64,000 nucleotides of DNA from NCBI GenBank assembly GCA_040222015.1, contig JAVJWO010000030.1, positions 1 to 64,000 on the forward strand. Reading direction: 5' to 3'. This document shows, in pieces, positions 18,467 through 63,360 of the stretch (positions within the stretch are counted from its first letter, which is position 1; each line of letters starts with the position of its first letter). The position numbers and the translations under genes are program-made. Source of the stretch: Coleofasciculus chthonoplastes F2-STO-03. Its GTDB lineage: Bacteria > Cyanobacteriota > Cyanobacteriia > Cyanobacteriales > Coleofasciculaceae. The notes below the pieces were generated by a model. It searched no databases, was not told the origin of the DNA, and saw only the letters and a list, made by a program, of their open reading frames with translations.

Positions 18467-19339
18467 ATGAACAATAAATCTTTGCTTTACGGCTTTCTTA
18501 GTTTAGCAACCATCGGTACAATTACCGGGTTAGCGATGACCAACCAGAGCCAAGCTGAAGTCCAAATACCCGGAAAAAATTCTCCGGCTCAAATCCAAGA
18601 AAATCGGTCGGGACACAATAATCATCATCTGAAACAATCTGGAAATGCTGCGACTCCCGGTATGGAAATGATGAATCATCACCAAGGCGAACAGCACTTT
18701 ATCCAAATGATGATACATCATTATCAGATGACTGAGGACATGGCAAACCTGGCGTTGGATAAGGCTCAGCGTCCTGAAATTCAACGATTTGCCCAAACTG
18801 TCAAGACAGAACAAAACCGAAAAATTGAGCAACTGAAAACCTGGTATAAACAGTGGTACGGTACCGAAGCGCCTGCGGTATCACAGATGAGGATGCATCC
18901 TGGTGGTAATCAAGATATGCCCATGAATTCGGGTACAGGTATGCATCCTGGTGGTAATCAAGATATGCCCATGAATTCAGGTACAGGTATGCATCCTGGT
19001 GGTAATCAAAATATGCCCATGAATTCAGGTACAGGTATGCATCCTGGTGGTAATCAAAATATGCCCATGCATCAAGGGATGAACATGATGAGCATGATGA
19101 ATAAAATGGGCAATATGAACATGATGGCTGTAGATTTAGACACCCTAAAAAATGCTCCTGACTTTGACAAAGCCTTCATGGAGCAGATGATTCCCCATCA
19201 AAAAATGGCAGTGATGATGGCTGGGATGGTACTGGATAGCAACCGCCCTGAAGTTCGCAATCTGGCACAATCCATTCTCCAGGAAGAGAGTGCTGAAATT
19301 GAACAGATGCGGCAATGGTATCAAACTTGGTATCAATAG
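18467..19339 (+). CDS. copM: DUF305 CopM-like periplasmic Cu-binding protein
   Basis: Signal peptide; FIQMMIHH and FMEQMIPHQ helices; His/Met-rich linker. Confidence 0.8.
   Translation: MNNKSLLYGFLSLATIGTITGLAMTNQSQAEVQIPGKNSPAQIQENRSGHNNHHLKQSGNAATPGMEMMNHHQGEQHFIQMMIHHYQMTEDMANLALDKAQRPEIQRFAQTVKTEQNRKIEQLKTWYKQWYGTEAPAVSQMRMHPGGNQDMPMNSGTGMHPGGNQDMPMNSGTGMHPGGNQNMPMNSGTGMHPGGNQNMPMHQGMNMMSMMNKMGNMNMMAVDLDTLKNAPDFDKAFMEQMIPHQKMAVMMAGMVLDSNRPEVRNLAQSILQEESAEIEQMRQWYQTWYQ
18893..19069 (+). repeat. In-frame 48-bp tandem repeat (MHPGGNQ[DN]MPMNSGTG, ~3.7 copies)
   Basis: Units start at 18893, 18941, 18989 and 19037. Confidence 0.95.
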
Positions 19340-19639
19340 TCTTCCCTCTGGCTTGATGCAATTCAAGCCAGAATTGATCCTTTGTATTCAATGACAATTT
19401 CCTGACTAATACCAAGTTGCAGTCTAAGGTAGAATCTGTCATGCTGAGTGGTTCGTAGTGAGGGCTTTAGCCCTCTCCAGCTAGGCGTTAGAGAACTAAA
19501 GTTCTCACTACAAACCTGATAACGTGGTAGTGCAGCGCCGACTCAAACTGTTACCTATAAAACCTGTTGAACTTGAGACAATTTTTTTAGCGTTTCATTG
19601 AAGCGCTGTAATAGCTATGTAAGCTGTCCTTTCTCTCGT

Positions 19640-19936
19640 TTATTGTTTAGATCGCCTAGAAGCAGACCGACCTGTTTGAAACCACATGATCAATCCCGTA
19701 ACCACTAAAAACAAAAGACCTAGAGCGTTTAAAAATACATATACACTCTCTAAATTGATGCTGCCAAATTTACCACGATGTAGGGCTAATAACCACAGAA
19801 AATCTGTTTCTTTGCCATTGAGGACAGCAACTTGAAAGAGCAAACCTGTGGTTAGCGTCAGCAGCAGGGGAAAAAGCATAATTGGCGCGAGAACGCGATG
19901 TAGTTGGCGCGTGTAGCGTTTGATTAAAACAGACAT
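19640..19936 (-). CDS. Small PepSY-associated TM-type membrane protein
   Basis: RQLHR..APIM..PLLLT..TG and LALHRG motifs, hydrophobic helices. Confidence 0.7.
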   Translation of the reverse strand: MSVLIKRYTRQLHRVLAPIMLFPLLLTLTTGLLFQVAVLNGKETDFLWLLALHRGKFGSINLESVYVFLNALGLLFLVVTGLIMWFQTGRSASRRSKQ

Positions 19937-19946
19937 ATCAGTTCTA

Positions 19947-20309
19947 TCACCTCCGCTGTTTCAAGAAAAATAGCCCCAAGGGAGTACCAATTAACAAGAC
20001 AAAAATTGACTCTCCCAGTCCTGTGGGCATGAGAGTGGACGCTTGGCTAGTCATGGAGTATTCATCAGGAGCCGTTGTAGGCATTAATTCGTTGGGCGTA
20101 TGCGATTGAACGGGGGATTCCACCCTTTGGCTTGGCTGCTCTTGTTCGGCAGTGTGGGAGGTAGAAGCGGGAGTTTTTGAGGTCTGGGAGTGAGGTTCTG
20201 AACCATGTGCCAATAACGGATCGGCTACAAAGGTTAATAACAGCAAACTAATTCCTGTTGTTTTAATGACTGTTCGCACCGATTGTGCCAGTTTCATGGG
20301 AAAATTCAT
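19947..20309 (-). CDS. Exported His-containing hypothetical protein with C-terminal anchor
   Basis: Signal-like N-terminus then AHGSEPH; C-terminal hydrophobic helix and basic tail. Confidence 0.65.
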   Translation of the reverse strand: MNFPMKLAQSVRTVIKTTGISLLLLTFVADPLLAHGSEPHSQTSKTPASTSHTAEQEQPSQRVESPVQSHTPNELMPTTAPDEYSMTSQASTLMPTGLGESIFVLLIGTPLGLFFLKQRR

Positions 20310-20355
20310 GGTGCTTAAATTCCACTTTGCAGTAGCTGAATGAATGAGTTTTTGC

Positions 20356-20389
20356 CATTATGCCAAAAGACTATGAAATTAGCATGAAA
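20356..20389 (-). promoter_or_regulatory. CopR-type box plus -10 for the 20309/19936 genes
   Basis: Minus strand reads TTTCAT-gctaa-TTTCAT-N10-CATAAT. Confidence 0.8.
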
Positions 20390-20522
20390 TCTGTCTGGAT
20401 TTGGCAAAAACTTTCGGCGGTGAACCCTGAATGTAACGTTTGATCAAAATGGATTAGCCCTATGAAAAGAAAACTTGTATTGGGGCTAAGGTTCCCCTAC
20501 TACGAACCTAATCGCAATTTGG

Positions 20523-20542
20523 GAATTTCACCTGAATTTCAT
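20523..20542 (+). promoter_or_regulatory. CopR/NrsR-type direct repeat upstream of the efflux operon
   Basis: GAATTTCA-cct-GAATTTCA(T), 11-bp period. Confidence 0.75.
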
Positions 20543-20594
20543 CTGTCCTTTGGCAGACTGGGGAAGATTTTCGTCAACCCAGAGCGAGTGAACT

Positions 20595-21284
20595 ATGCGT
20601 TATCGGCACAAAGCCTTACTAGAATCTGTCCTGATTACCACCCTGATGCTGTCTATGCCTAATGTGGCTTTTTCCCATGTCGGACATGGGGATGAGTTTC
20701 AAGCGACAGGGGGTGTGGAACGAGTACAGGTGAATGCTGAAACTGATCAGATGTTGGGCATTGTTGTCACGCCGATCGCTCAATCCGCTGAGGGTGGAAC
20801 TGGAGTGATGGTGCCTGTCACCGCATTGGTGGATGCGGATGGCAAGCAGCTCGTCTTTGTGCAGTATGAGAATTTTTATGAGCCAGTTGAAATTACAACA
20901 GGTGCAACCCAGGGCGAACTGATCGAAGTAACCGCAGGATTGTCGGTTGGGGAAAACCTCGTCACCCAAGGTGGCTTGTCACTTTATGCCGAATCTCGCA
21001 AAACCAAAACGGCTGATTCAGCCACTAACCCCGATGCGATCGCATCTTCTAAAACCGATGCAGCTCATGCTCAGGCAGATGCCCAAGGAATCCCTCATAG
21101 CCACGATGCTGCTGGCAATATAACCCAACAGCCTGGGGAAGTCGCACCGCAAGAGGGTGGATTTCCGATGGGGATTTTAGCTGCTGTTGGTGGCGGAGCC
21201 GTGGTGTTAGTTGGTGCGATCGCCTTTATCGGGGGCAATCGTAAGAAAAAGAATGTCTTTTCTGACAAAAGAGGGGGCTTCTAA
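20595..21284 (+). CDS. NrsB-like periplasmic adaptor for heavy-metal RND efflux
   Basis: Signal peptide then HVGHGDEF; adaptor-like VPVTALV..VFVQ..YEPV..G; PHSH; C-terminal TM. Confidence 0.75.
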   Translation: MRYRHKALLESVLITTLMLSMPNVAFSHVGHGDEFQATGGVERVQVNAETDQMLGIVVTPIAQSAEGGTGVMVPVTALVDADGKQLVFVQYENFYEPVEITTGATQGELIEVTAGLSVGENLVTQGGLSLYAESRKTKTADSATNPDAIASSKTDAAHAQADAQGIPHSHDAAGNITQQPGEVAPQEGGFPMGILAAVGGGAVVLVGAIAFIGGNRKKKNVFSDKRGGF

Positions 21285-21290
21285 TCTAAA

Positions 21291-24200
21291 ATGTTTAACA
21301 CGATTCTGAATCAGACGCTCAAAAACGCGATCGCTCATCGGTGGTTCATCGTTGCGGGTGCTATTGTGATTACCCTGTGGGGTGTTGTCAGTATCACTCA
21401 GATGCCACTGGATGTGTTTCCTGAATTTGCACCGCCTCAAGTCGATATTCAAACCGAAGCAACGGGATTGGCTCCAGAGGAGGTGGAAACACAGATTACT
21501 GTACCCATTGAAAGTGCGGTGAATGGCTTACCCGGAGTGACGACGGTGCGATCGTCTTCTAAGGTAGGGCTATCGATGGTGCAGGTAGTCTTTGACCAAG
21601 ATGCTGATATTTACAAAGCGCGGCAATCGGTAACAGAACGGCTCCAGCAAGTCACCAATCAGCTTCCAGAAGACACGCATCCGCCAGAAATTTCGCCACT
21701 GGTATCCCCGTTGGGTACGATTTTGCAGTATGCCTTTACCGTAAATGGGCAGGGGCAAACCTCGCTGATGGAACTGCGCCGACTGGTGGACGTCACCCTC
21801 AGCCATCAGATTCTGTCAGTACCGGGAGTCTCTCAAGTTACCATTTATGGGGGAGATGAACGCCAAGAACAAGTGCTGGTCGATCCGGCAAAACTGCGAT
21901 CGCGTAATGTCTCTCTCACCGACGTCACCAATGCCGCAAGAGGTGCCAATTCTAATGCTCCTGGTGGTTTCCTGATTGGTGGGGGTCAAGAACTGCTGGT
22001 GCGTGGCATTGGGCAGATCCAATCCATTGAAGACTTGCAGCAATCGGTGGTGAAGGTGCAGGAGGGGCAACCCATTCTGCTTCAAGATGTGGCAGAGGTC
22101 AAAACCGGGGCAGCCCTAAAGCGCGGGGATGCCAGCTTTAATGGACAGCCTGCGGTGGTGCTGATGATTAATAAACAGCCTGATGTGGATACTCCCACCG
22201 TCACGAAAGCGGTGGAAGCGGTGATGCAGTCGTTGCAGCCAACCTTTCCGGCTGATGTACAAGTGGCACGAACCTTTCGCCAGTCTAACTTCATTGATGC
22301 GGCGATTCGCAATGTCAGCGGTTCTCTGATTCAAGGCATCATTATTGTGTCGGTGATCATGCTGCTGTTTTTGATGAATTGGCGCACGGCGGTGATTACT
22401 CTGAGTGCGATTCCCCTATCTTTGTTGGTTGGGTTACTCTTGATGAAAGCCTTTGGCTTGGGCATCAATACAATGACATTGGGTGGATTAGTGGTTGCCA
22501 TTGGCTCCGTTGTGGATGATGCAATTGTGGACATGGAAAACTGCTATCGTGGACTCCGCACGAATCAAGCCCAGGGCAATCCCAAGCATCCCTTTCAAGT
22601 TGTCTATGACACCTCTGTGGCAGTACGGCTGGCGGTGATTTTTTCCACCGTGATCATCATTGTGGTATTCGCACCGATTTTTAGTTTGACTGGCGTGGAG
22701 GGGCGTATTTTTGCGCCGATGGGGTTGGCATATTTGCTGTCAATCGCGGCTTCTACACTGGTGGCTATGACCCTTTCTCCTGCCCTTTGTGCGATTTTGC
22801 TGGCTAATCAAACCTTGCCCCAGGAAGGTACGTTTGTGTCCCGCTGGGCAGAACGGCTCTATCGCCCGTTGCTGAATGTTTCGTTGCGATCGCCCCAAAT
22901 TATTTTAGGTGTGGCACTGGCGGCGTTGGTGGCGGCTTGTGCGATCGTTCCTTCCCTAGGACGGGTGTTTCTGCCGGAATTCCAGGAAAAGTCGATGGTT
23001 AACTCGATGGTGTTATTTCCGGGTGTGTCCCTGGATATGACGAATCGGGCAGGGATAGTGCTTTCTAAGTCGCTTCAGGACAATCCCCTCTATGAATGGG
23101 TGCAGGTACGGGCAGGACGCGCTCCTGGGGATGCTGATGGGGCTGGAGTGAGTATGGCACACGTTGATGTGGAACTGAGTGATCGGGCGCTGAAAGACCG
23201 GGAAGCTAGCGTTAAACACCTGCGGGAAGCCTTCCTGAAGTTGCCCGGTGTCGCCCCTAATATTGGCGGATTTATCTCCCACCGCATGGATGAGGTACTC
23301 TCTGGAGTTAGAAGTGCGATCGCGATAAAAATCTTTGGTCCGGATTTGATCGAACTCCGCCAGATTGGTGAACAGGTGCGCGATGTTATTCAACCGATTG
23401 CTGGGGTTGTAGACTTGCAGCTTGAACCCCAACTGCCCATACGTCAGGTGCAAATCCAATATGATCGGGCGGCGGCGGCGACGTATGGATTGAGTATGGA
23501 ACAATTGTCAGAGGTGGTAGAAACGGCTCTGAATGGTCGAGTGGTGTCCCAGGTAGCGGAAAACCAACAGCTTATTGATATCTACGTCTCATTGACACAA
23601 AAGGCGCGTAACAGTTTAGATGCGATTGGTGGGATTCCTATCTCCACTCCCACGGGAGAAACCATCCCCCTGAGTACCGTGGCTAAAGTAGATTACGGCA
23701 TGGGCGTCAATGTGGTGAATCGAGAAGACGTTTCCCGGTTAATTGTTGTTTCAGCTAACGTTACTGAGCGGGATTTGGGCAGTGTGGTTGGTGATATTCA
23801 AGCTCAAATTCGCCAAAACGTACAGTTGCCTAATGGCTATTTTATCCAGTACGGCGGACAGTTTGAATCGGAGGAACGGGCGACTAATAACCTGCTGGTG
23901 TATAGTATCTTGGCGGCGATAGTGATTGCGGTGTTGATGTTCTTTTCGGTTAAATCCCTTCCTGCTACGCTCGCGATCATGATTAACTTACCTTTGGCAT
24001 TAGTGGGAGGTATTGTCTCAATTGCGCTGACTGGCGGTGTGATTTCGGTTGCATCTCTGATTGGCTTTATCACCCTGTTTGGCGTTGCTGTTCGCAATGG
24101 CTTGTTACTGGTAGACAACTACAACAACAAGTTTGCCCAGGGAATGTACCTTAAAGATGTAATTGTCAATGGTTCTCTAGAACGAGTGAACGCCATCTTG

Positions 24201-24455
24201 ATGACAGCAATCACCTCAGCATTGGGGATGCTACCGTTAGCGATCGCCAGTGGCGCTGGAAATGAGATTTTACAGCCGTTGGCAATTGTGGTTTTGGGTG
24301 GTTTGTTTACTTCTACAGCCTTGACATTATTGGTGATTCCTGCACTTTATGCCAAGTTTGGCAAGCGGTTGATACCCAAACAAAAAACCATGGCGGTTCA
24401 GACGAGTTTTCCGGTGAAGGCTGCACCGCAATCATCGGTAGATTCACTGCTGTAG
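21291..24455 (+). CDS. CusA/CzcA-family heavy-metal efflux RND transporter (NrsA-like)
   Basis: 1054 aa; LDVFPEF, GLAPEEVE, GSVVDDAIVDMEN, AILMTA and LAIVVLGGL motifs. Confidence 0.93.
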   Translation: MFNTILNQTLKNAIAHRWFIVAGAIVITLWGVVSITQMPLDVFPEFAPPQVDIQTEATGLAPEEVETQITVPIESAVNGLPGVTTVRSSSKVGLSMVQVVFDQDADIYKARQSVTERLQQVTNQLPEDTHPPEISPLVSPLGTILQYAFTVNGQGQTSLMELRRLVDVTLSHQILSVPGVSQVTIYGGDERQEQVLVDPAKLRSRNVSLTDVTNAARGANSNAPGGFLIGGGQELLVRGIGQIQSIEDLQQSVVKVQEGQPILLQDVAEVKTGAALKRGDASFNGQPAVVLMINKQPDVDTPTVTKAVEAVMQSLQPTFPADVQVARTFRQSNFIDAAIRNVSGSLIQGIIIVSVIMLLFLMNWRTAVITLSAIPLSLLVGLLLMKAFGLGINTMTLGGLVVAIGSVVDDAIVDMENCYRGLRTNQAQGNPKHPFQVVYDTSVAVRLAVIFSTVIIIVVFAPIFSLTGVEGRIFAPMGLAYLLSIAASTLVAMTLSPALCAILLANQTLPQEGTFVSRWAERLYRPLLNVSLRSPQIILGVALAALVAACAIVPSLGRVFLPEFQEKSMVNSMVLFPGVSLDMTNRAGIVLSKSLQDNPLYEWVQVRAGRAPGDADGAGVSMAHVDVELSDRALKDREASVKHLREAFLKLPGVAPNIGGFISHRMDEVLSGVRSAIAIKIFGPDLIELRQIGEQVRDVIQPIAGVVDLQLEPQLPIRQVQIQYDRAAAATYGLSMEQLSEVVETALNGRVVSQVAENQQLIDIYVSLTQKARNSLDAIGGIPISTPTGETIPLSTVAKVDYGMGVNVVNREDVSRLIVVSANVTERDLGSVVGDIQAQIRQNVQLPNGYFIQYGGQFESEERATNNLLVYSILAAIVIAVLMFFSVKSLPATLAIMINLPLALVGGIVSIALTGGVISVASLIGFITLFGVAVRNGLLLVDNYNNKFAQGMYLKDVIVNGSLERVNAILMTAITSALGMLPLAIASGAGNEILQPLAIVVLGGLFTSTALTLLVIPALYAKFGKRLIPKQKTMAVQTSFPVKAAPQSSVDSLL

Positions 24456-24581
24456 GGCTTTTGATTAGATTGGGTTTCCACCCGTTCATTAATCCGTGAA
24501 AAAACCGCGATCGCACGCGGGTTATCTTAAACTGAAGTTCCCCACCGTTCACTTTAATTGTCCCCACCTACTAAAAACACA

Positions 24582-24836
24582 ATGTCACATCAACTCACAA
24601 TCACCTACCCAGAAACCTTTCCCGATGCCTTACAACAAACCAGAGAACAGTTTGAACATGAGGCAAAATGGGCAATGGCAGTGAAACTTTTTGAGATGAA
24701 ACGCCTATCATCGGGAATGGCAGCCGCATTGATTGGCACGGATAGAGTTTCATTCCTGCTTCACTTAAATCGTTATGGTGTGCCAATGATTGACCTCACC
24801 GAAGCAGAACTATTATCGGATTTGGACAATGCCTGA
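24582..24836 (+). CDS. UPF0175 family putative antitoxin
   Basis: AVKLFE..RLSSGMAA...G..R..FL motif; overlaps the next gene. Confidence 0.85.
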   Translation: MSHQLTITYPETFPDALQQTREQFEHEAKWAMAVKLFEMKRLSSGMAAALIGTDRVSFLLHLNRYGVPMIDLTEAELLSDLDNA

Positions 24837-25341
24837 AACCCAGAAGATTGTAATCAATACTTCCCCCTTAATCGCTCTTGTTGCTGCTTTAGGTGATTTA
24901 ACGGTATTGCCATCTCTTTATACTCAGGTATTGGTTCCCTTTGAAGTCTGTCAAGAAATTATGGCAGGTGGTTCAAGTGGGTTTGCCGTAGCTGAATTTG
25001 AAGCAGCAACCTGGCGGCAAAAACAACAAACCTCCTTGACAATTTCTCCCCTTCTGCTCAATTCCCTCGATAGAGGCGAAGCCGCCGTGATTCAGTTAGC
25101 TATGAATGAAAACATTCAAACTGTCTGTATTGATGAAGTGGCAGGTAGACGAATCGCCAGATTAAGTGGACTTTCACTGACGGGTTCTATTGGCATTTTA
25201 CTCCGTGCTAAGCGGGAAGGCTTCCTTTTTTCAATGCAGCAAGCGATATCTCAAATGCTCAACCGAGGGATTCGATTAAGTCCAACGGTGATTAAGTTTG
25301 CTTTAGAACAATCTGGGGAAAACCCTGTATCTGAGGAATGA
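24829..25341 (+). CDS. DUF3368 PIN-domain protein (putative toxin)
   Basis: VINTSPLI, LDRGEAAVI, IDE..GRR.A and GSIGILL.AK motifs. Confidence 0.85.
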   Translation: MPETQKIVINTSPLIALVAALGDLTVLPSLYTQVLVPFEVCQEIMAGGSSGFAVAEFEAATWRQKQQTSLTISPLLLNSLDRGEAAVIQLAMNENIQTVCIDEVAGRRIARLSGLSLTGSIGILLRAKREGFLFSMQQAISQMLNRGIRLSPTVIKFALEQSGENPVSEE

Positions 25342-60868: not shown

Positions 60869-61405
60869 TTAATAAGCATCCTGCAATTCATAGAAGTCGG
60901 GCGAGATATAATCCTTCCGCAGGGGCCAGCCCACCCAATCTTCCGGCATCAAAATCCGCTTCAAGTTGGGGTGTCCTTCATAGACAATGCCAAACATATC
61001 GTAGGTTTCCCGCTCTTGCCAGTCAGCACTCTTCCAAATCCAATAGACGGATGGCACGCTGGGATTGTCGCGGGGTAGAAATACCTTCACCCTAACTTCC
61101 TCAGGTTGATCAACATCATCACTGATCTTAATTAAATGGTAGAAGCTGACCAACTCTTCACCAGGACCAACATCATAACCGCCTTGACATTGCAGGTAGT
61201 TAAACCCATAAGCATAGAGAGCCGTGGCAACGGGAATCAAGACCTCTGGTTGTACCTTAATCACCTCAATTCCCAGGTGATCCGGTTCCATTAACTCGGT
61301 TTCAAAGCCATTTTCCTTCAGCCAGCCATGGACTTCTCCTGTCTCAGCGAGTGAGGATTCTTCAGCGTTCTCTGGTGTCTGTTCTTTGGACTCTTCTTCA
61401 GCCAC
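60869..61405 (-). CDS. ndhJ: NDH-1 subunit J
   Basis: [34 protein letters not shown]. Confidence 0.96.
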
Positions 61406-62141
61406 GATTCACCTCCTGCTGTTGAGACGACTTCAGTGCGGGGGGAACAGGCATTCCCATCGCTTCGGTTAACTCCTTCGGTGGAGTTTGGCGATTTTCA
61501 GACCGCAAGTATTGACCTGTGAGAATATCGGGTACAACCTTCATGCTATGCGTGGTGCTGTAATAGCGGTGGGTTGGACTCAGAGTTGCCCGTTCCTGGA
61601 TAGACTCATTTGCTACCTTCTTACGAAGTTTAATGATCGCATCCATAATCGCTTCCGGACGGGGTGGACAACCAGGAATATAAACATCCACGGGAATCAA
61701 CTTATCCACACCCCGCACGGCGGTTGGTGAATCGACGCTGAACATTCCCCCGGTAATCGTACAAGCCCCCATCGCCATCACATATTTAGGTTCTGGCATT
61801 TGCTCATACAGACGCACCAGTGCTGGTGTCATTTTCATCGTGATCGTGCCAGCAGTAATAATCAAATCCGCTTGTCGGGGACTACAACGGGGCACCAATC
61901 CAAATCGGTCAAAGTCAAACCGAGAGCCAATCATCGCCGCAAATTCAATAAAACAGCAGGCGGTGCCATACATCATCGGCCACAGGCTGGAAAGCCTAGC
62001 CCAGTTGTAGAGATCGTCTACTGTCGTCAAAATCACGTTTTCTGAGAGATCCTGCGTCACCTGAGGACGACTAATGGGATTAAGAATTTTCTCTTTGGGT
62101 TGCGGCTTTTGGGGTGCCGCGTTTGCTGTATCTGTATTCAT
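61398..62141 (-). CDS. ndhK: NDH-1 subunit K
   Basis: [17 protein letters not shown] and GCPPRPEA motifs; start taken at ATG 62141 (MNTDT). Confidence 0.95.
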
Positions 62142-62590
62142 CCAAATATTCGCGACTGGATACCTCATCCATAGATAGTATGGGCAGTTAGAAAGCCGCG
62201 CCTCCTAGGTAAAGTACAAAAAGCTCTAAACCCCTACCGCCTTGGATTTACTCGCCGACGTTCGACATATTGCGCTTGCCTGTCGCCTGGGTAGTTACTT
62301 TCCTCGTGCTTTTAACCTGTACGGATATGGGTTATTTGATTGGGCTTGCGCCCCTCCCTTTCGGGGTAACGTTAGCTTCGCCAAAGTTATGTCTCGGTAC
62401 TTTCTCCAACACACTGGCTTTTCCCTATAACCTGTTTAATGCTGGAGTTGTAGAGCTACAGACTAGCTACGCATCCGTAGGTACGAACTTTAACACTTAG
62501 ACATAACGTAGTTCAAGGCAGAACTTAGGCTGGTAAACATAGGCTTTTGGAAAGCCTCTTCCATGCCTAAGCATGGACGGGGTAGTTTAC
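62142..62590 (-). mobile_element. Non-autonomous IscB-type (OMEGA, IS200/IS605 superfamily) element without ORF
   Basis: Begins GTAAACTACCCC, has hairpins near both ends and ends directly before ATGA; removal restores the ndhC/ndhK overlap GAATGGTCATGA. Confidence 0.85.
62350..62590 (-). ncRNA. HEARO / omega-RNA scaffold
   Basis: Minus strand shows ordered HEARO hallmarks: GTAAACTACCCC, GTTTACCAGCCTAAG, CTACGTTAT, GGATGC..CTAGTC..GCTCT, TTAAACAG, CAGTG, ATAACTTTGGCGAAG. Confidence 0.85.
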
Positions 62591-62949
62591 GACCATTCTA
62601 AAGCTCCTTTGCGCCAAGCGTAAACGAGGGCAACGACGAGAATTGCAATAAAGATGAGTGCTTCGATAAACGCTAGTAGTCCTAGCTGATTGAATGCCAC
62701 TGCCCAAGGATAGAGAAAAACGGTCTCCACATCAAAAATCACGAAGACCAGGGCAAACATATAGTACCGGATATTGAACTGAATCCAAGCGCCCCCAATC
62801 GGTTCCATGCCAGATTCGTAGGTCGTCCGGCGTTCGGGGGAGCGGATGCTGGGTCGCAGCAGCTTCGAGGCTGCCAGCGCTAGAACTGGGACTAAACTGC
62901 TTGCCAGTAAGAACCCTAGGAAATATTCGTAGCCGCTAAGAACAAACAC
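62587..62949 (-). CDS. ndhC: NDH-1 subunit C
   Basis: [19 protein letters not shown] and WRKGALEWS motifs. Confidence 0.97.
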
Positions 62950-63308
62950 AATAGGTAAGTATCCCTAAACCTTGTCGTTATTACTTCTTTACATTCTTTT
63001 ACCCATTATAAGGGTGGTTGGTTTTCTGCAAATCGAAGCGGGTCAAGTTTTTCCGAGACGATGAGATTTCCGCGATCGCGCCTCTTTAAAAGACACACCT
63101 AGCGACTTGCGATAATCCGGAAAAATGGGCGGGAATATTTTTCCCGAAATTTCGCGAAAATGCCTGTAAATCAGGCTTCTATGATTAACCCCCTGTAGGG
63201 GCGACCCGCTTGCATCAATTAACGACTGTATCCACTCAATTAGGTCGGGTCGCCCTATACTCAATTAGGTCGGGTCGCCCTATACTCAATTGGCAGATAC
63301 GATAATTA

Positions 63309-63340
63309 GATCCCCGCCTTCTTGGAGAAGGCGGGGATCT
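63309..63340. terminator. Strong hairpin downstream of the reductase gene
   Basis: GATCCCCGCCTTCT-TGG-AGAAGGCGGGGATC. Confidence 0.55.
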
Positions 63341-63360
63341 GGTCATCATCCAGCAATTGT

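What the first reader, a model, noticed from the sequence alone, without database searches (positions are those of the whole stretch)
62142..62590. ORF-less HEARO/omega-RNA element inserted seamlessly into the ndhC/ndhK overlap, with a guide supplied by ndhC
Seen: a 449-bp insert separates ndhC from ndhK. On the minus strand it reads ...GAATGGTC|GTAAACTACCCC...AATATTTGG|ATGAATACA. Deleting it gives GAATGGTCATGAAT, where ndhC ends GAA TGG TCA TGA and ndhK starts ATG GTC ATG AAT, the usual overlapping ndhC-ndhK layout. The element's first bases rebuild the same Ser-stop (TCG TAA), so NdhC is unchanged and NdhK can start at the second ATG. The 5' ~240 nt carry HEARO-like motifs, and I see no IscB ORF. 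Established: IscB omega-RNAs take their guide from the 5' flank, insert without target duplication and use a 3' TAM such as ATGA. Inference: this is a standalone omega-RNA transcribed within the ndhCKJ mRNA. Its guide (..GGAGCTTTAGAATGGTC) would direct a trans-encoded IscB to the empty ndhC/K allele. The structured RNA also breaks ndhC-ndhK translational coupling and may have been co-opted for regulation.
Basis: partly seen in the sequence, partly recalled or inferred. Interest (0 to 1): 0.88.

Follow-up and report, generated by a model that had tools for sequence, protein, structure and literature searches.

The report
Gene-less guide-RNA transposon splitting ndhC/ndhK
A 449-base mobile element that carries only the guide-RNA scaffold of an IscB (Cas9-ancestor) transposon sits exactly in the overlap between two photosynthesis-related genes; it belongs to a known class, but it carries an extra folded RNA domain and seems to have spread between related species.

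Summary
Window 62590..62142 (minus strand) is a 449-bp insert between ndhC and ndhK. Its first 225 nt match Rfam HEARO (IscB omega-RNA) over the full model at 141.9 bits (cut-off 83). It has no IscB-like frame. Three congeners have the exact empty site GAATGGTC|ATGAAT, as do 17 of 21 loci outside the genus.

It is a non-autonomous ISC (IS200/IS605-IscB) transposon inserted at N|ATGA without duplication, as published for cyanobacterial ISC elements. The genome holds 35 HEARO matches. Of 24 assessable strong copies, 16 are gene-less, and many sit at host start codons.

New here:
- The insert carries a second structured RNA domain of about 105 nt, supported by covariation, absent from Rfam and from IscB-bearing copies.
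- In one congener a second, IsrB-like element used the same ATGA.
- The filled allele, meaning the element plus about 116 and 50 nt of flank, is far less diverged between five species than the surrounding genes. It is therefore younger than the species and moved by recombination.

RNA-derived contigs bridge both junctions. Use of the ndhC-derived guide by an IscB supplied in trans is plausible but untested: the closest intact IscB has a scaffold only 69% identical. Nothing supports regulatory co-option.

The parts
62142..62590 (-). Whole mobile element, 449 bp: a gene-less ISC (IscB-type IS200/IS605) derivative
   Evidence: Exactly this stretch is missing in G002, G006 and G008. It is present at 98.4-99.3% identity in G001, G004, G005 and G007.
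62366..62590 (-). HEARO / IscB omega-RNA scaffold
   Evidence: RF02033 full-length match, 141.9 bits (gathering 83), fourth best of 35 matches in the genome. The P1 stem GUAAAC...GUUUAC pairs where the family consensus has GUCAAC...GUUGAC (alignment).
62591..62607 (-). Presumed guide segment (GGAGCTTTAGAATGGTC, the last 17 nt of ndhC before its Ser codon is completed). The length is an assumption.
   Evidence: It lies directly 5' of the scaffold and outside the element boundary. The IscB guide is encoded outside the transposon end (Meers preprint). It is unique in the genome at up to 2 mismatches, and guide+ATGA is absent from G000.
62226..62365 (-). Mid region. Two small hairpins (62365-62332) are followed by a conserved four-helix RNA domain of about 105 nt (core 62331-62226).
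   Evidence: Alignment A1 of 27 copies has 19 consensus pairs, 11 with changes on both sides, and 94.5% of cells paired. 0 of 500 shuffles reach the observed values, and slid controls give 0-4 such pairs. No Rfam match at E<=10. Absent from IscB-bearing copies. Helix 3 is disrupted in this copy (GAAAG...CAGGC).
62142..62228 (-). 87-nt terminal module (the transposon end next to the target), ending ...GGTATCCAGTCGCGAATATTTGG
   Evidence: No other copy in G000. The full length is found only at this site, in 6 genomes of the genus. It is homologous to the terminus of a sister HEARO element in G004:C18 and G001:C86 that ends ...GGTATCCAGCCGCGAAATATTA|ATGA.
62138..62141 (-). ATGA: the transposon target site and presumed TAM. 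Its ATG is the ndhK start codon.
   Evidence: Retained, not duplicated, at empty and filled sites. All 8 of 8 G000 copies with a definable 3' end abut ATGA. A second element in G003 inserted at the same ATGA. N|ATGA is the published target of cyanobacterial ISC elements.
62587..62949 (-). ndhC coding sequence. Its last sense base and its stop codon (G TAA, 62590-62587) are supplied by the element.
   Evidence: Empty alleles end TCA TGA and filled alleles TCG TAA, both Ser-stop.
61398..62141 (-). ndhK coding sequence from the ATG of the ATGA (247 aa). An in-frame ATG at 62168 inside the element would add 9 residues.
60869..61405 (-). ndhJ, the third gene of the operon
   Evidence: Used as neutral-rate flank.

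Best explanation
The insert is a non-autonomous, gene-less member of the ISC group of IS200/IS605 transposons, the group that normally carries iscB.

Shown:
- It consists of an intact-looking IscB omega-RNA (HEARO) scaffold at its 5' end, a second conserved structured RNA domain where iscB would be, and an 87-nt transposon end.
- It was inserted between ...ATGGTC and ATGA in the ndhC/ndhK overlap, without target duplication. This is the N|ATGA specificity published for cyanobacterial ISC elements.
- By chance of sequence the insertion preserved NdhC and left ndhK with its own ATG.

Inferred from the published mechanism:
- A Y1 transposase (TnpA) supplied in trans performed the insertion.
- Read-through from the ndhC promoter yields an RNA whose scaffold is preceded by ndhC sequence acting as guide.
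- With a compatible IscB, that RNA would cut any chromosome copy carrying the empty site (guide match followed by ATGA). Repair from a filled copy would then keep or spread the insert.

Shown but open as to cause: the filled allele (element plus about 116 nt and 50 nt of flank) is several-fold less diverged among five species than the surrounding coding DNA. I read this as a young allele that moved between lineages by homologous recombination. Whether IscB cleavage drove that spread is not shown.

My odds: identity and mode of insertion about 0.95; young, recombination-spread allele about 0.65; currently working as a guide RNA with a resident IscB about 0.3.
For: Identity:
- Full-length RF02033 match starting at the boundary.
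- No IscB-like frame.
- The genome holds 35 HEARO matches, 26 over the cut-off.
- It holds 17 Y1_Tnp matches and five RRXRR+HNH proteins of 404-467-aa frames.

Boundaries and target:
- Exact empty sites in 3 congeners.
- 5' ends of 13 aligned copies start GT(C/A)A after unrelated flanks.
- 8 of 8 copies with a definable 3' end abut ATGA.
- The sister element ends ...AATATTA|ATGA.
- A second element landed at the same ATGA in G003.
- Kapitonov 2016 reports 5'-GT termini and an N|ATGA target for cyanobacterial ISC.

Mobility of the family since speciation:
- The C215 insertion is present in 0 of 8 congeners, while 93-99% identical copies lie elsewhere in G003, G006 and G008.
- The C177 insertion is shared only with G002.

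Transcription:
- X1 has one 2126-nt RNA-library contig spanning 61700-62987. X2 and X3 have contigs crossing each junction.
- No terminator-like site lies inside the insert on the ndh strand.

Young allele:
- 11 of 449 element sites vary among 5 species, against 116 of 548 third-codon sites in ndhC/K/J.
- The element is 0.67-1.56% diverged and the flanks 2.39-5.70%, in 10 of 10 pairs.
- G000 differs from the filled consensus at 0 of 166 junction-flank sites but at 27 of 458 sites further out. The four non-filled genomes differ at 9-13 of 166.
- The 138-nt remnant in G003 differs from G000 at 2 sites, although most of its scaffold is deleted (counted by eye).

Guide logic:
- The guide is unique in the genome and guide+ATGA is absent from G000, so there is no self-target.
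- The Meers preprint states that the guide lies outside the transposon end and needs outside transcription.
Against: No intact IscB in G000 has a close scaffold:
- HEARO-core identity to the window copy is 69% for C31, 64% for C77 and 56-58% for C12, C193 and C214.
- The closer scaffolds belong to gene-less copies or to IscB fragments such as C5 at 71%.
- In the congeners, every match above 80% to the element runs on into the mid region, so it is also of the gene-less type.

The element's 3' end is GG, not the CG reported for ISC1-1_MA. Its 87-nt terminus has no second full-length copy anywhere in 52 genomes, so recent transposition of this particular element is not shown.

Helix 3 of the mid domain is broken in this copy.

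The RNA evidence is contigs only. They give no strand, no ends and no proof of one transcript, and DNA carry-over in RNA libraries is possible.

The recombination reading has limits:
- The pairs are not independent.
- The tract limits were set after looking at the data.
- Informative sites give a mixed picture: 60 group G000 with the other filled genomes and 16 with G002, the latter clustered at 62091-61780.
- Mosaic near-identical tracts occur elsewhere too, for example 416 nt at 100% between G000 and G004 at the rpsO locus. Ordinary recombination without any nuclease could suffice.
- In the C177 control the contrast was weaker: element 1.43%, one flank 1.68%, the other 4.29%.
Confidence: 0.8

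Rival explanations
1. Inert relic. The element is a dead, single-copy leftover of an ISC transposon that happens to be tolerated between ndhC and ndhK. It makes no working guide RNA today. Its low divergence reflects only a recent origin and ordinary homologous recombination between closely related species.
For: No cognate intact IscB is evident. The terminus is unique. Helix 3 of the mid domain is broken. Mosaic identical tracts are seen at an unrelated locus. G003 carries a heavily deleted remnant at the same site, showing that decay is tolerated.
Against: The HEARO core scores fourth best of 35 in the genome and covers the full model. Its P1 stem keeps pairing through a change on both sides relative to the family consensus. 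All eight congeners carry 9-37 RRXRR matches each, so a partner nuclease is not excluded.
Confidence: 0.35
2. Co-opted regulatory RNA. The structured insert has been recruited by the host to uncouple ndhK translation from ndhC, or to create a processing or stability site in the ndhCKJ mRNA, and is conserved for that reason.
For: The insert removes the stop/start overlap. It is retained in five species with very few changes. RNA-library contigs cover it. Short unitigs in its mid region have very high depth in X3 (19000-25000 against 1498 for the flanking contig).
Against: Three congeners and nearly all other relatives do without it. The conservation extends to synonymous sites of the flanks and to the G003 remnant, which points to youth rather than constraint. 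The high-depth unitigs are 31-44-nt words shared by many copies, and the tool warns that depth is not a measure of expression. Sibling elements sit in front of unrelated genes such as tig, a clpP-like gene, psbN and a ComFB-domain gene. That pattern fits target choice, not a dedicated ndh function.
Confidence: 0.07
3. Ancestral spacer. The 449 bp is original intergenic sequence that other lineages lost.
For: None found.
Against: The overlap GAATGGTCATGA is the state in 3 congeners and in 17 of 21 loci outside the genus. The insert is a member of a 35-copy repeat family with the same boundaries elsewhere.
Confidence: 0.01

Closest known systems
ISC transposons of cyanobacteria, e.g. ISC1-1_MA of Microcystis aeruginosa (Kapitonov, Makarova and Koonin 2016, PMC4810608; passages read)
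   Same: 5'-GT(C)A start, insertion immediately upstream of ATGA, no target-site duplication, presence/absence polymorphism between related genomes, mobilisation in trans by a Y1 transposase.
   Different: Those elements encode IscB/IsrB and end in CG-3'. This one has no nuclease gene, ends in GG-3' and carries an extra structured domain.
HEARO RNA / IscB omega-RNA, Rfam RF02033 (Weinberg et al. 2009 and Altae-Tran et al. 2021: recalled, not read here; Meers et al. preprint, passages read)
   Same: Full-length covariance-model match. The scaffold starts at the transposon boundary, with the guide position in the outside flank. It is co-oriented with the upstream gene, as Meers et al. report for iscB loci.
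   Different: No adjacent iscB. About 105 nt of further conserved structure lies downstream, outside the Rfam model, and is absent from the iscB-bearing copies of the same genome.
PATE-like gene-less IS200/IS605 derivatives that still encode guide RNAs (Meers et al. preprint discussion).
   Same: Both transposon ends and the guide-RNA scaffold are kept and the protein gene is lost. The element depends on nuclease and transposase supplied in trans, and the type is common in the genome (16 of 24 assessable copies here).
   Different: The passage in Meers et al. speaks of TnpB-type elements. The copy here sits inside a stop/start overlap of an operon and includes the mid domain.
RNA-guided retention and drive of IS200/IS605 elements (Meers et al. 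preprint; Mears et al. 2025 preprint on TnpB drive in multicopy plasmids, PMC11870625, passages read)
   Same: The anatomy fits the model: the guide records the insertion site, the TAM is the retained ATGA, and only the empty allele is a target. Cyanobacteria commonly keep several chromosome copies (general knowledge, not tested here).
   Different: Those studies used elements that carry their own nuclease, and they were laboratory experiments. Here the nuclease would act in trans, and the only evidence for spread is comparative.
Homing of group I introns and inteins with co-conversion of flanking markers (general knowledge; review PMC13565253, passages read)
   Same: The presence/absence allele travels with a short flanking haplotype centred on the insertion site.
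   Different: No self-splicing occurs. The insert stays in the mRNA between two reading frames.

Membership tests
HEARO RNA / IscB omega-RNA (RF02033) | Sequence and secondary structure match the covariance model above the curated gathering score | tested here: met
   141.9 bits against 83, model positions 1-211 of 211
HEARO RNA / IscB omega-RNA (RF02033) | Lies directly upstream of an iscB (RRXRR + HNH) gene | tested here: not met
   No IscB-like frame in the 2.6 kb downstream; ndhK follows. The same holds for 16 of 24 assessable strong copies in this genome.
HEARO RNA / IscB omega-RNA (RF02033) | The 5' end of the scaffold coincides with the transposon boundary, so that the guide comes from the outside flank | tested here: met
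   The Rfam match starts at 62590, the first base missing from the empty sites.
HEARO RNA / IscB omega-RNA (RF02033) | Binds IscB and directs cleavage of a guide-matching target next to a TAM | not testable with these tools
   Needs biochemistry. The closest intact IscB has a scaffold 69% identical.
ISC / IS200-IS605 transposon (non-autonomous) | Inserts at a specific 4-bp site without target-site duplication | tested here: met
   ATGGTC|ATGA at empty sites and ATGGTC[449 bp]ATGA at filled sites. 8 of 8 definable copies abut ATGA.
ISC / IS200-IS605 transposon (non-autonomous) | Conserved termini (5'-GT ... CG-3' for the cyanobacterial N|ATGA group) | tested here: inconclusive
   The 5' GT is met. 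The 3' end is GG here, TA in the sister element, and CG or TG in C215-type copies.
ISC / IS200-IS605 transposon (non-autonomous) | Subterminal imperfect hairpins recognised by the Y1 transposase | not tested
   Possible hairpins CCATA-CTATC-TATGG and GGAT-GAGGT-ATCC were seen by eye near the 3' end. No fold or comparison with a TnpA-bound end was made.
ISC / IS200-IS605 transposon (non-autonomous) | A Y1 (TnpA) transposase is available in trans | tested here: met
   17 Y1_Tnp matches in the genome, 16 over the Pfam cut-off. Which of them, if any, recognises these ends is unknown.
ISC / IS200-IS605 transposon (non-autonomous) | Presence/absence polymorphism at orthologous sites, with multiple copies at different sites | tested here: met
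   5 filled, 3 empty and 1 derived among 9 genomes of the genus. The family has 35 matches in G000.
Host-recruited cis-regulatory RNA of the ndh operon | Conserved with the operon across relatives and evolving under constraint of its own | tested here: not met
   Absent from 3 congeners and from all 21 loci outside the genus. The low divergence extends into flanking synonymous sites.

The most novel reading that the evidence does not exclude
The filled ndhC|ndhK allele is a natural, nuclease-less drive cassette. Its RNA, read through from ndhC, carries a guide for the empty site. An IscB encoded elsewhere uses it to cut empty chromosome copies, both within polyploid cells and after DNA exchange between species. 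The 449-bp element then spreads across species boundaries with only about 50-120 nt of co-converted flank. The conserved four-helix mid domain, found only in gene-less copies, would be a new RNA module that adapts such cassettes to life inside host transcripts, for example by defining the 3' end of the guide RNA or protecting the downstream message.
Probability: 0.18. Interest if true: 0.78.

Novelty: new variant of a known kind. Interest (0 to 1): 0.5.

Why it matters
The basic object is textbook OMEGA/ISC biology: a gene-less IscB guide-RNA transposon at an N|ATGA site. Three things make this case useful.

1. It is an unusually clean natural example. The insertion splits an overlapping stop/start without changing either protein. 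Filled, empty, decayed and doubly occupied alleles are all available within one genus.

2. The comparative data suggest that the filled allele is much younger than the species carrying it and travels with a very short flank. RNA-guided homing would leave this footprint in nature, although ordinary recombination could too. Homing has so far been shown only in laboratory systems.

3. The gene-less copies carry a second RNA domain, supported by covariation and absent from Rfam. It is found in 19 of 52 genomes of the family. If it proves functional, it would show that these mini-elements are more than deletion products.

The tendency of the family to sit at or next to start codons of housekeeping genes (ndhK, tig, a clpP-like gene, psbN, a folD-like gene) also bears on how such elements affect host gene expression.

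Tried and rejected
- Sister relationship of G000 and G002: I first took these as sister genomes, which would have made G000's filled allele a clear import. The informative-site scan did not bear this out: 60 sites group G000 with the filled genomes and 16 with G002, the latter clustered in ndhK 62091-61780. I dropped that argument and used pairwise and consensus-distance contrasts instead.
- Mid region as the 3' part of full-length IscB elements: rejected. BLAST against ten IscB-bearing or fragment-bearing elements of G000 found the C215-type terminus in C95 and C5 but found the mid region in none.
- Partial matches in G001:C158 and G003:C127 as ends of full-length elements: no IscB gene lies beside the G001 one, and G003:C127 ends at the contig edge.
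- Mid module beside TnpB: the three HEARO-less copies in G000 (C56, C40, C195) have no TnpB- or IscB-like ORF within 2.5 kb, judged by eye from ORF translations without a Pfam run.
- Known RNA family for the mid or terminal parts: nothing in Rfam 15 at E<=10, on the window copy or on the intact C215 copy.
- Promoter at the ndhC end (62624..62595, 9 of 12 matches): the number of such sites equals the shuffle expectation (2 found, 2.1 expected), so I draw nothing from it.
- Depth in RNA contigs: not used as a measure of expression. X12 leaves parts of the stretch uncovered, which proves nothing.
- Literature: the searches (listings seen) turned up no description of the ndhC/ndhK insertion or of an extra domain in gene-less HEARO copies. 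Weinberg et al. 2009 is not held, and Altae-Tran et al. 2021 was not read, so prior description there cannot be excluded. Supplementary figures of Kapitonov 2016 and Meers 2023 were not seen.
- Earlier scan notes: nothing for this genome or for the mid-module sequence.
Full report
**What is there.** On the minus strand the window encodes ndhC (62949..62587), ndhK (to 61398) and ndhJ (61405..60869). CGCGAATATTTGG|ATGAATACAG, at 62590..62142, 449 bp.

A scan of the whole window against Rfam 15 gives a single match above a gathering score. It is HEARO (RF02033) at 62590..62366, minus strand, 141.9 bits (gathering 83), covering model positions 1-211 of 211 and starting at the first base of the claimed insert. 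A permissive scan of 61900-62900 adds nothing else of note.

No IscB-like reading frame follows. An HMM built from the genome's own five IscB proteins finds nothing in the 2.6 kb downstream. The two small antisense ORFs inside the insert match no Pfam family at E<=1.

**The empty site.** I searched 40 relatives with an 851-nt query spanning the insert. Within the genus:
- Four species (G001, G004, G005, G007) match end to end at 97-98%.
- Three (G002, G006, G008) have query positions 210 and 660 adjacent, so exactly 62590..62142 is missing.
- One (G003) has a derived form.

Reading the junctions, the three empty genomes have ATGGTC|ATGAATACAGATACA. Of the 21 loci outside the genus, 17 have ATGGTC followed directly by ATGA, 2 by ATAA and 1 by GTGA; 1 (L069) reads ATGGAC followed by unrelated sequence.

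The insert turns TCA TGA into TCG TAA, so NdhC is unchanged. The first ATG of the old overlap now opens a 9-codon frame that ends at TAG inside the element (read). ndhK must therefore start at 62141, or at an in-frame ATG at 62168 inside the element.

**What family it belongs to.** The window's genome (7.72 Mb, 219 contigs) has 35 HEARO matches, 26 above the cut-off. It has 17 matches to the Y1 transposase domain.

The 26 strong copies classify as follows (Pfam, HMM):
- 5 are followed by an apparently full-length IscB (RRXRR + HNH; C214, C77, C12, C31, C193). C12 has a further 71-aa IscB-like piece in another frame, so it may be frameshifted near its end.
- 3 are followed by IscB fragments (C5, C23, C95).
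- 2 lie at contig ends and cannot be judged.
- 16 have no IscB-like frame.
An IsrB-like gene (RRXRR without HNH) follows a weaker HEARO match at C170.

In an alignment of 13 copies, every copy begins GT(C/A)A after an unrelated flank. Several gene-less copies share the end ...CCAATTTTCG followed by ATGA and then unrelated sequence.

For eight copies the 3' end can be fixed. Three are fixed by empty sites in relatives (C30, C215, C177) and five by the shared terminus (C216, C5, C33, C48, C120). All eight abut ATGA.

This matches Kapitonov et al. 2016 (passages read). They report that cyanobacterial ISC transposons have a 5'-GT end, insert at N|ATGA and make no target duplication. It also matches the Meers et al. 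preprint (passages read). They state that the IscB guide RNA begins outside the transposon end, so it needs transcription from an upstream host promoter, and that iscB loci are biased to the orientation of the upstream gene.

**Anatomy of the 449 bp.**
1. Positions 1-225 (62590..62366) are the HEARO scaffold.
2. Positions about 226-365 (62365..62226) are a block shared with other gene-less copies of several scaffold subtypes. It is absent from all ten IscB-bearing or fragment-bearing elements of the genome.
3. The last 87 nt (62228..62142) have no other copy in the genome.

*The terminus.* In 52 genomes of the family, the full-length terminus is found only at this very site, in six genomes of the genus. 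Weaker relatives (75-87%) exist elsewhere. Two of those relatives adjoin HEARO cores that are 83-87% identical to the window's, at an orthologous locus in G004:C18 and G001:C86. A third such core, in G008:C126, came from the HEARO search, not from the terminus search. Aligned, this sister element has a homologous terminus...GGTATCCAGCCGCGAAATATTA|ATGAAATCTGTT in G004 and G001, and no mid block. Both ends of the window element are thus those of a genuine element subfamily, and the mid block is a cassette on that backbone.

*The mid block is a structured domain.* It occurs in 19 of 52 genomes of the family, in 8 of 24 genera. I extracted 34 copies and aligned 27 of them. I left out two with a 15-nt inserted hairpin and five lacking one half. 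RNAalifold predicts 19 pairs in four helices, 11 of them with at least one sequence changed on both sides. On the same alignment:
- 94.5% of cells are paired.
- 11 pairs have double changes, against 5.4 +/- 1.3 in shuffles (0 of 500 reach it).
- Sliding the partners by 1-3 columns leaves 0-4 such pairs and 27-47% pairing.

Three of the pairs are mostly G-U or U-G on this strand. That favours an RNA read in the same direction as the guide RNA. There is no Rfam match at E<=10 on the window copy or on the intact C215 copy. In the window copy helix 3 is disrupted (GAAAG...CAGGC where others have GUCUG...CAGAC or GCUUG...CAAGC). Three copies of the domain in G000 stand alone without a HEARO. Its function is unknown.

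**Activity of the family.** The C215 insertion (upstream of rpsO) is absent from all 8 congeners, each with a clean or near-clean empty junction. Copies 93-99% identical to it lie at other loci in G003, G006 and G008. The C177 insertion is shared only with G002, one of the genomes that is empty at ndhC|ndhK. C177 ends ...GAAGACAG|ATGAAAGTTACT, and that ATG is the start of trigger factor.

In G003 the ndhC|ndhK site holds a remnant of the window's element: its first 51 and last 87 nt, still ending ...GAATATTTGG. Directly after it comes a second, different element of about 1.15 kb with a PLMP/RuvC-type frame (RRXRR positions 1-110). That element ends ...GGTTTACG|ATGAATACAG. The same ATGA was therefore used twice.

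**Where the gene-less copies sit.** In six of the eight copies with a fixed 3' end, the ATG of the ATGA opens a frame of 47 aa or more:
- ndhK
- trigger factor
- a Clp-protease-family protein
- a ComFB-domain protein
- PsbN, whose Pfam match starts 4 residues in, so its true start is probably the next ATG, 12 nt downstream
- a 143-aa protein of no known family (Pfam results)

The sister element precedes a frame beginning MKSVYPQLLDGKALAQRI, which looks like FolD. That identification is from memory and was not tested. Other gene-less copies lie just upstream of genes for a GTPase, an encapsulin-family protein and an RNase II-family protein.

**Is it transcribed?** Four metatranscriptome runs were laid on 61700-63000. 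X1 has one 2126-nt contig covering 61700-62987 with 16 differences. X2 and X3 each have one contig from ndhK to 62395 and another from 62379 through ndhC. They break in a stretch shared with other HEARO copies. No contig shows the empty joint.

Contigs cannot give strand, ends or proof of a single transcript, and DNA can be present in RNA libraries. I count this as a hint only. No terminator-like site is predicted inside the insert on the ndh strand.

**The unexpected part: the allele is too similar between species.**
- Among the five filled species, 11 of 449 element sites vary (HEARO 5 of 225, mid 5 of 137, terminus 1 of 87), plus insertions of 1 nt in G004 and 3 nt in G005.
- By contrast, 116 of 548 third-codon positions of ndhC, ndhK and ndhJ vary.
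- Pairwise, the element is 0.67-1.56% diverged and the flanking coding DNA 2.39-5.70%. That is a ratio of 2.6-5.1 in all 10 pairs. The pairs are not independent.
- The similarity extends into the flanks. In the last 116 nt of ndhC and the first 50 nt of ndhK, the five filled genomes differ from their consensus at 0-1 sites, while the four others differ at 9-13 of 166.
- In the remaining 458 nt compared, G000 differs from the filled consensus at 27 sites. That is as many as or more than the non-filled genomes (18-24).
- The environmental contigs of X2 and X3 show the same limits: no listed difference between 62092 and 62222 or between 62572 and 62706 (14 further differences were not shown by the tool), five differences inside the element, and many beyond.
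- The 138-nt remnant in G003, which can hardly serve as a guide scaffold, differs from G000 at only 2 sites (counted by eye).

Constraint on an RNA would not explain identical synonymous sites in the flanks or a conserved remnant. I therefore read the filled allele as younger than the species that carry it, and as moved between them by homologous recombination as a tract of roughly 600 bp.

Cautions:
- I set the tract limits after seeing the data.
- An informative-site scan gives a mixed picture: 60 sites group G000 with the filled genomes and 16 with G002, the latter clustered at 62091-61780.
- Near-identical mosaic tracts occur at unrelated loci, for example 416 nt at 100% between G000 and G004.
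- The C177 control shows the effect only partly: element 1.43%, flanks 1.68% and 4.29%, with 460 nt free of differences spanning the scaffold and 84 nt of the guide-side flank.

Ordinary recombination could be enough. Nothing here shows that an IscB cut drove the spread.

**Does the guide work?** The anatomy is right:
- The 17 nt before the scaffold are unique in the genome at up to 2 mismatches.
- The target (guide followed by ATGA) is absent from G000.
- The filled allele is protected, because GTAA follows the guide there.

Nuclease genes are plentiful: five apparently intact in G000 and 9-37 RRXRR matches in each congener. But the scaffolds attached to intact IscB genes in G000 are only 56-69% identical to this one (C31 is closest). 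The closer scaffolds belong to gene-less copies or to fragments. Whether any resident IscB accepts this RNA cannot be told from sequence. The idea of a drive among multiple genome copies has a laboratory precedent for TnpB on multicopy plasmids (Mears et al. preprint, passages read).

**Verdict.** The mechanism it proposes is the published one for this class. It fits the anatomy but is untested for this copy, and regulatory co-option has no support.

The object is a member of a known class. It has an undescribed second RNA domain (as far as Rfam and my searches show) and an evolutionary footprint that deserves a proper population-genomic test.

Noticed in passing
window 62226-62365 (minus strand); also G000 C215:33648-33794, C56:16651-16747, C40:62721-62831, C195:42463-42536: A conserved four-helix RNA domain of about 105 nt, found in gene-less HEARO elements and as solitary copies. 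It is supported by covariation (A1; 11 of 19 pairs with double changes), has no Rfam match, and occurs in 19 of 52 genomes of the family. The C195 copy lies just upstream of a Rho_N-like ORF and has orthologs in the congeners.
   Followed up: partly
L046 (G003:C58), about 90637-91930 in contig coordinates: The same ndhC|ndhK site holds a 138-nt remnant of the window's element followed by a second element of about 1.15 kb. The second element has an IsrB-like frame and inserted at the same ATGA; its guide would be the end of the first element.
   Followed up: partly
L069 (G034:C332), ndhC 3' end: In this more distant relative ndhC ends ...GAATGGAC and is followed by CTAAAAATGACTGGGGACTGGGAATAAG... 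instead of the ndhK start. This is possibly a different insertion at the same junction.
   Followed up: no
G000 C177:6432-6850, C33, C5, C48, C120; G004:C18 (L160): Gene-less HEARO elements sit exactly at, or within about 12-16 nt of, start codons of housekeeping genes: tig, a ComFB-domain gene, a clpP-like gene, psbN, rpsO and a folD-like gene. They replace the native sequence just upstream of the ATG.
   Followed up: partly
G000 copies C48, C49, C95, C120, C18 (alignment); L046: A short GC-rich palindrome (GTAGAGACGCGCCATGGCGCGTCTCTAC, and a variant with GTAGCATGCTAC) is inserted at different positions in several HEARO elements. It looks like a separate miniature repeat that targets hairpins.
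   Followed up: no
window 62950-63360: The intergenic region upstream of ndhC contains a tandem direct repeat (CAATTGAGTATAGGGCGACCCGACCTAATTGAGT...). It is scrambled by indels among the five species that share the insert, in sharp contrast to the insert itself.
   Followed up: no
window 62228-62270 and 62303-62333: In metatranscriptome run X3, 31-44-nt unitigs of the mid domain have depths of 19000-25000, against 1498 for the flanking ndh contig. These words are shared by many copies, so this is not a clean expression measure. It would still fit an abundant stable RNA.
   Followed up: no
L083 / G004:C544:1-416: At the rpsO locus a 416-nt stretch is 100% identical between G000 and G004 while neighbouring segments are 89-95% identical. 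Mosaic recombination between these species seems common.
   Followed up: no
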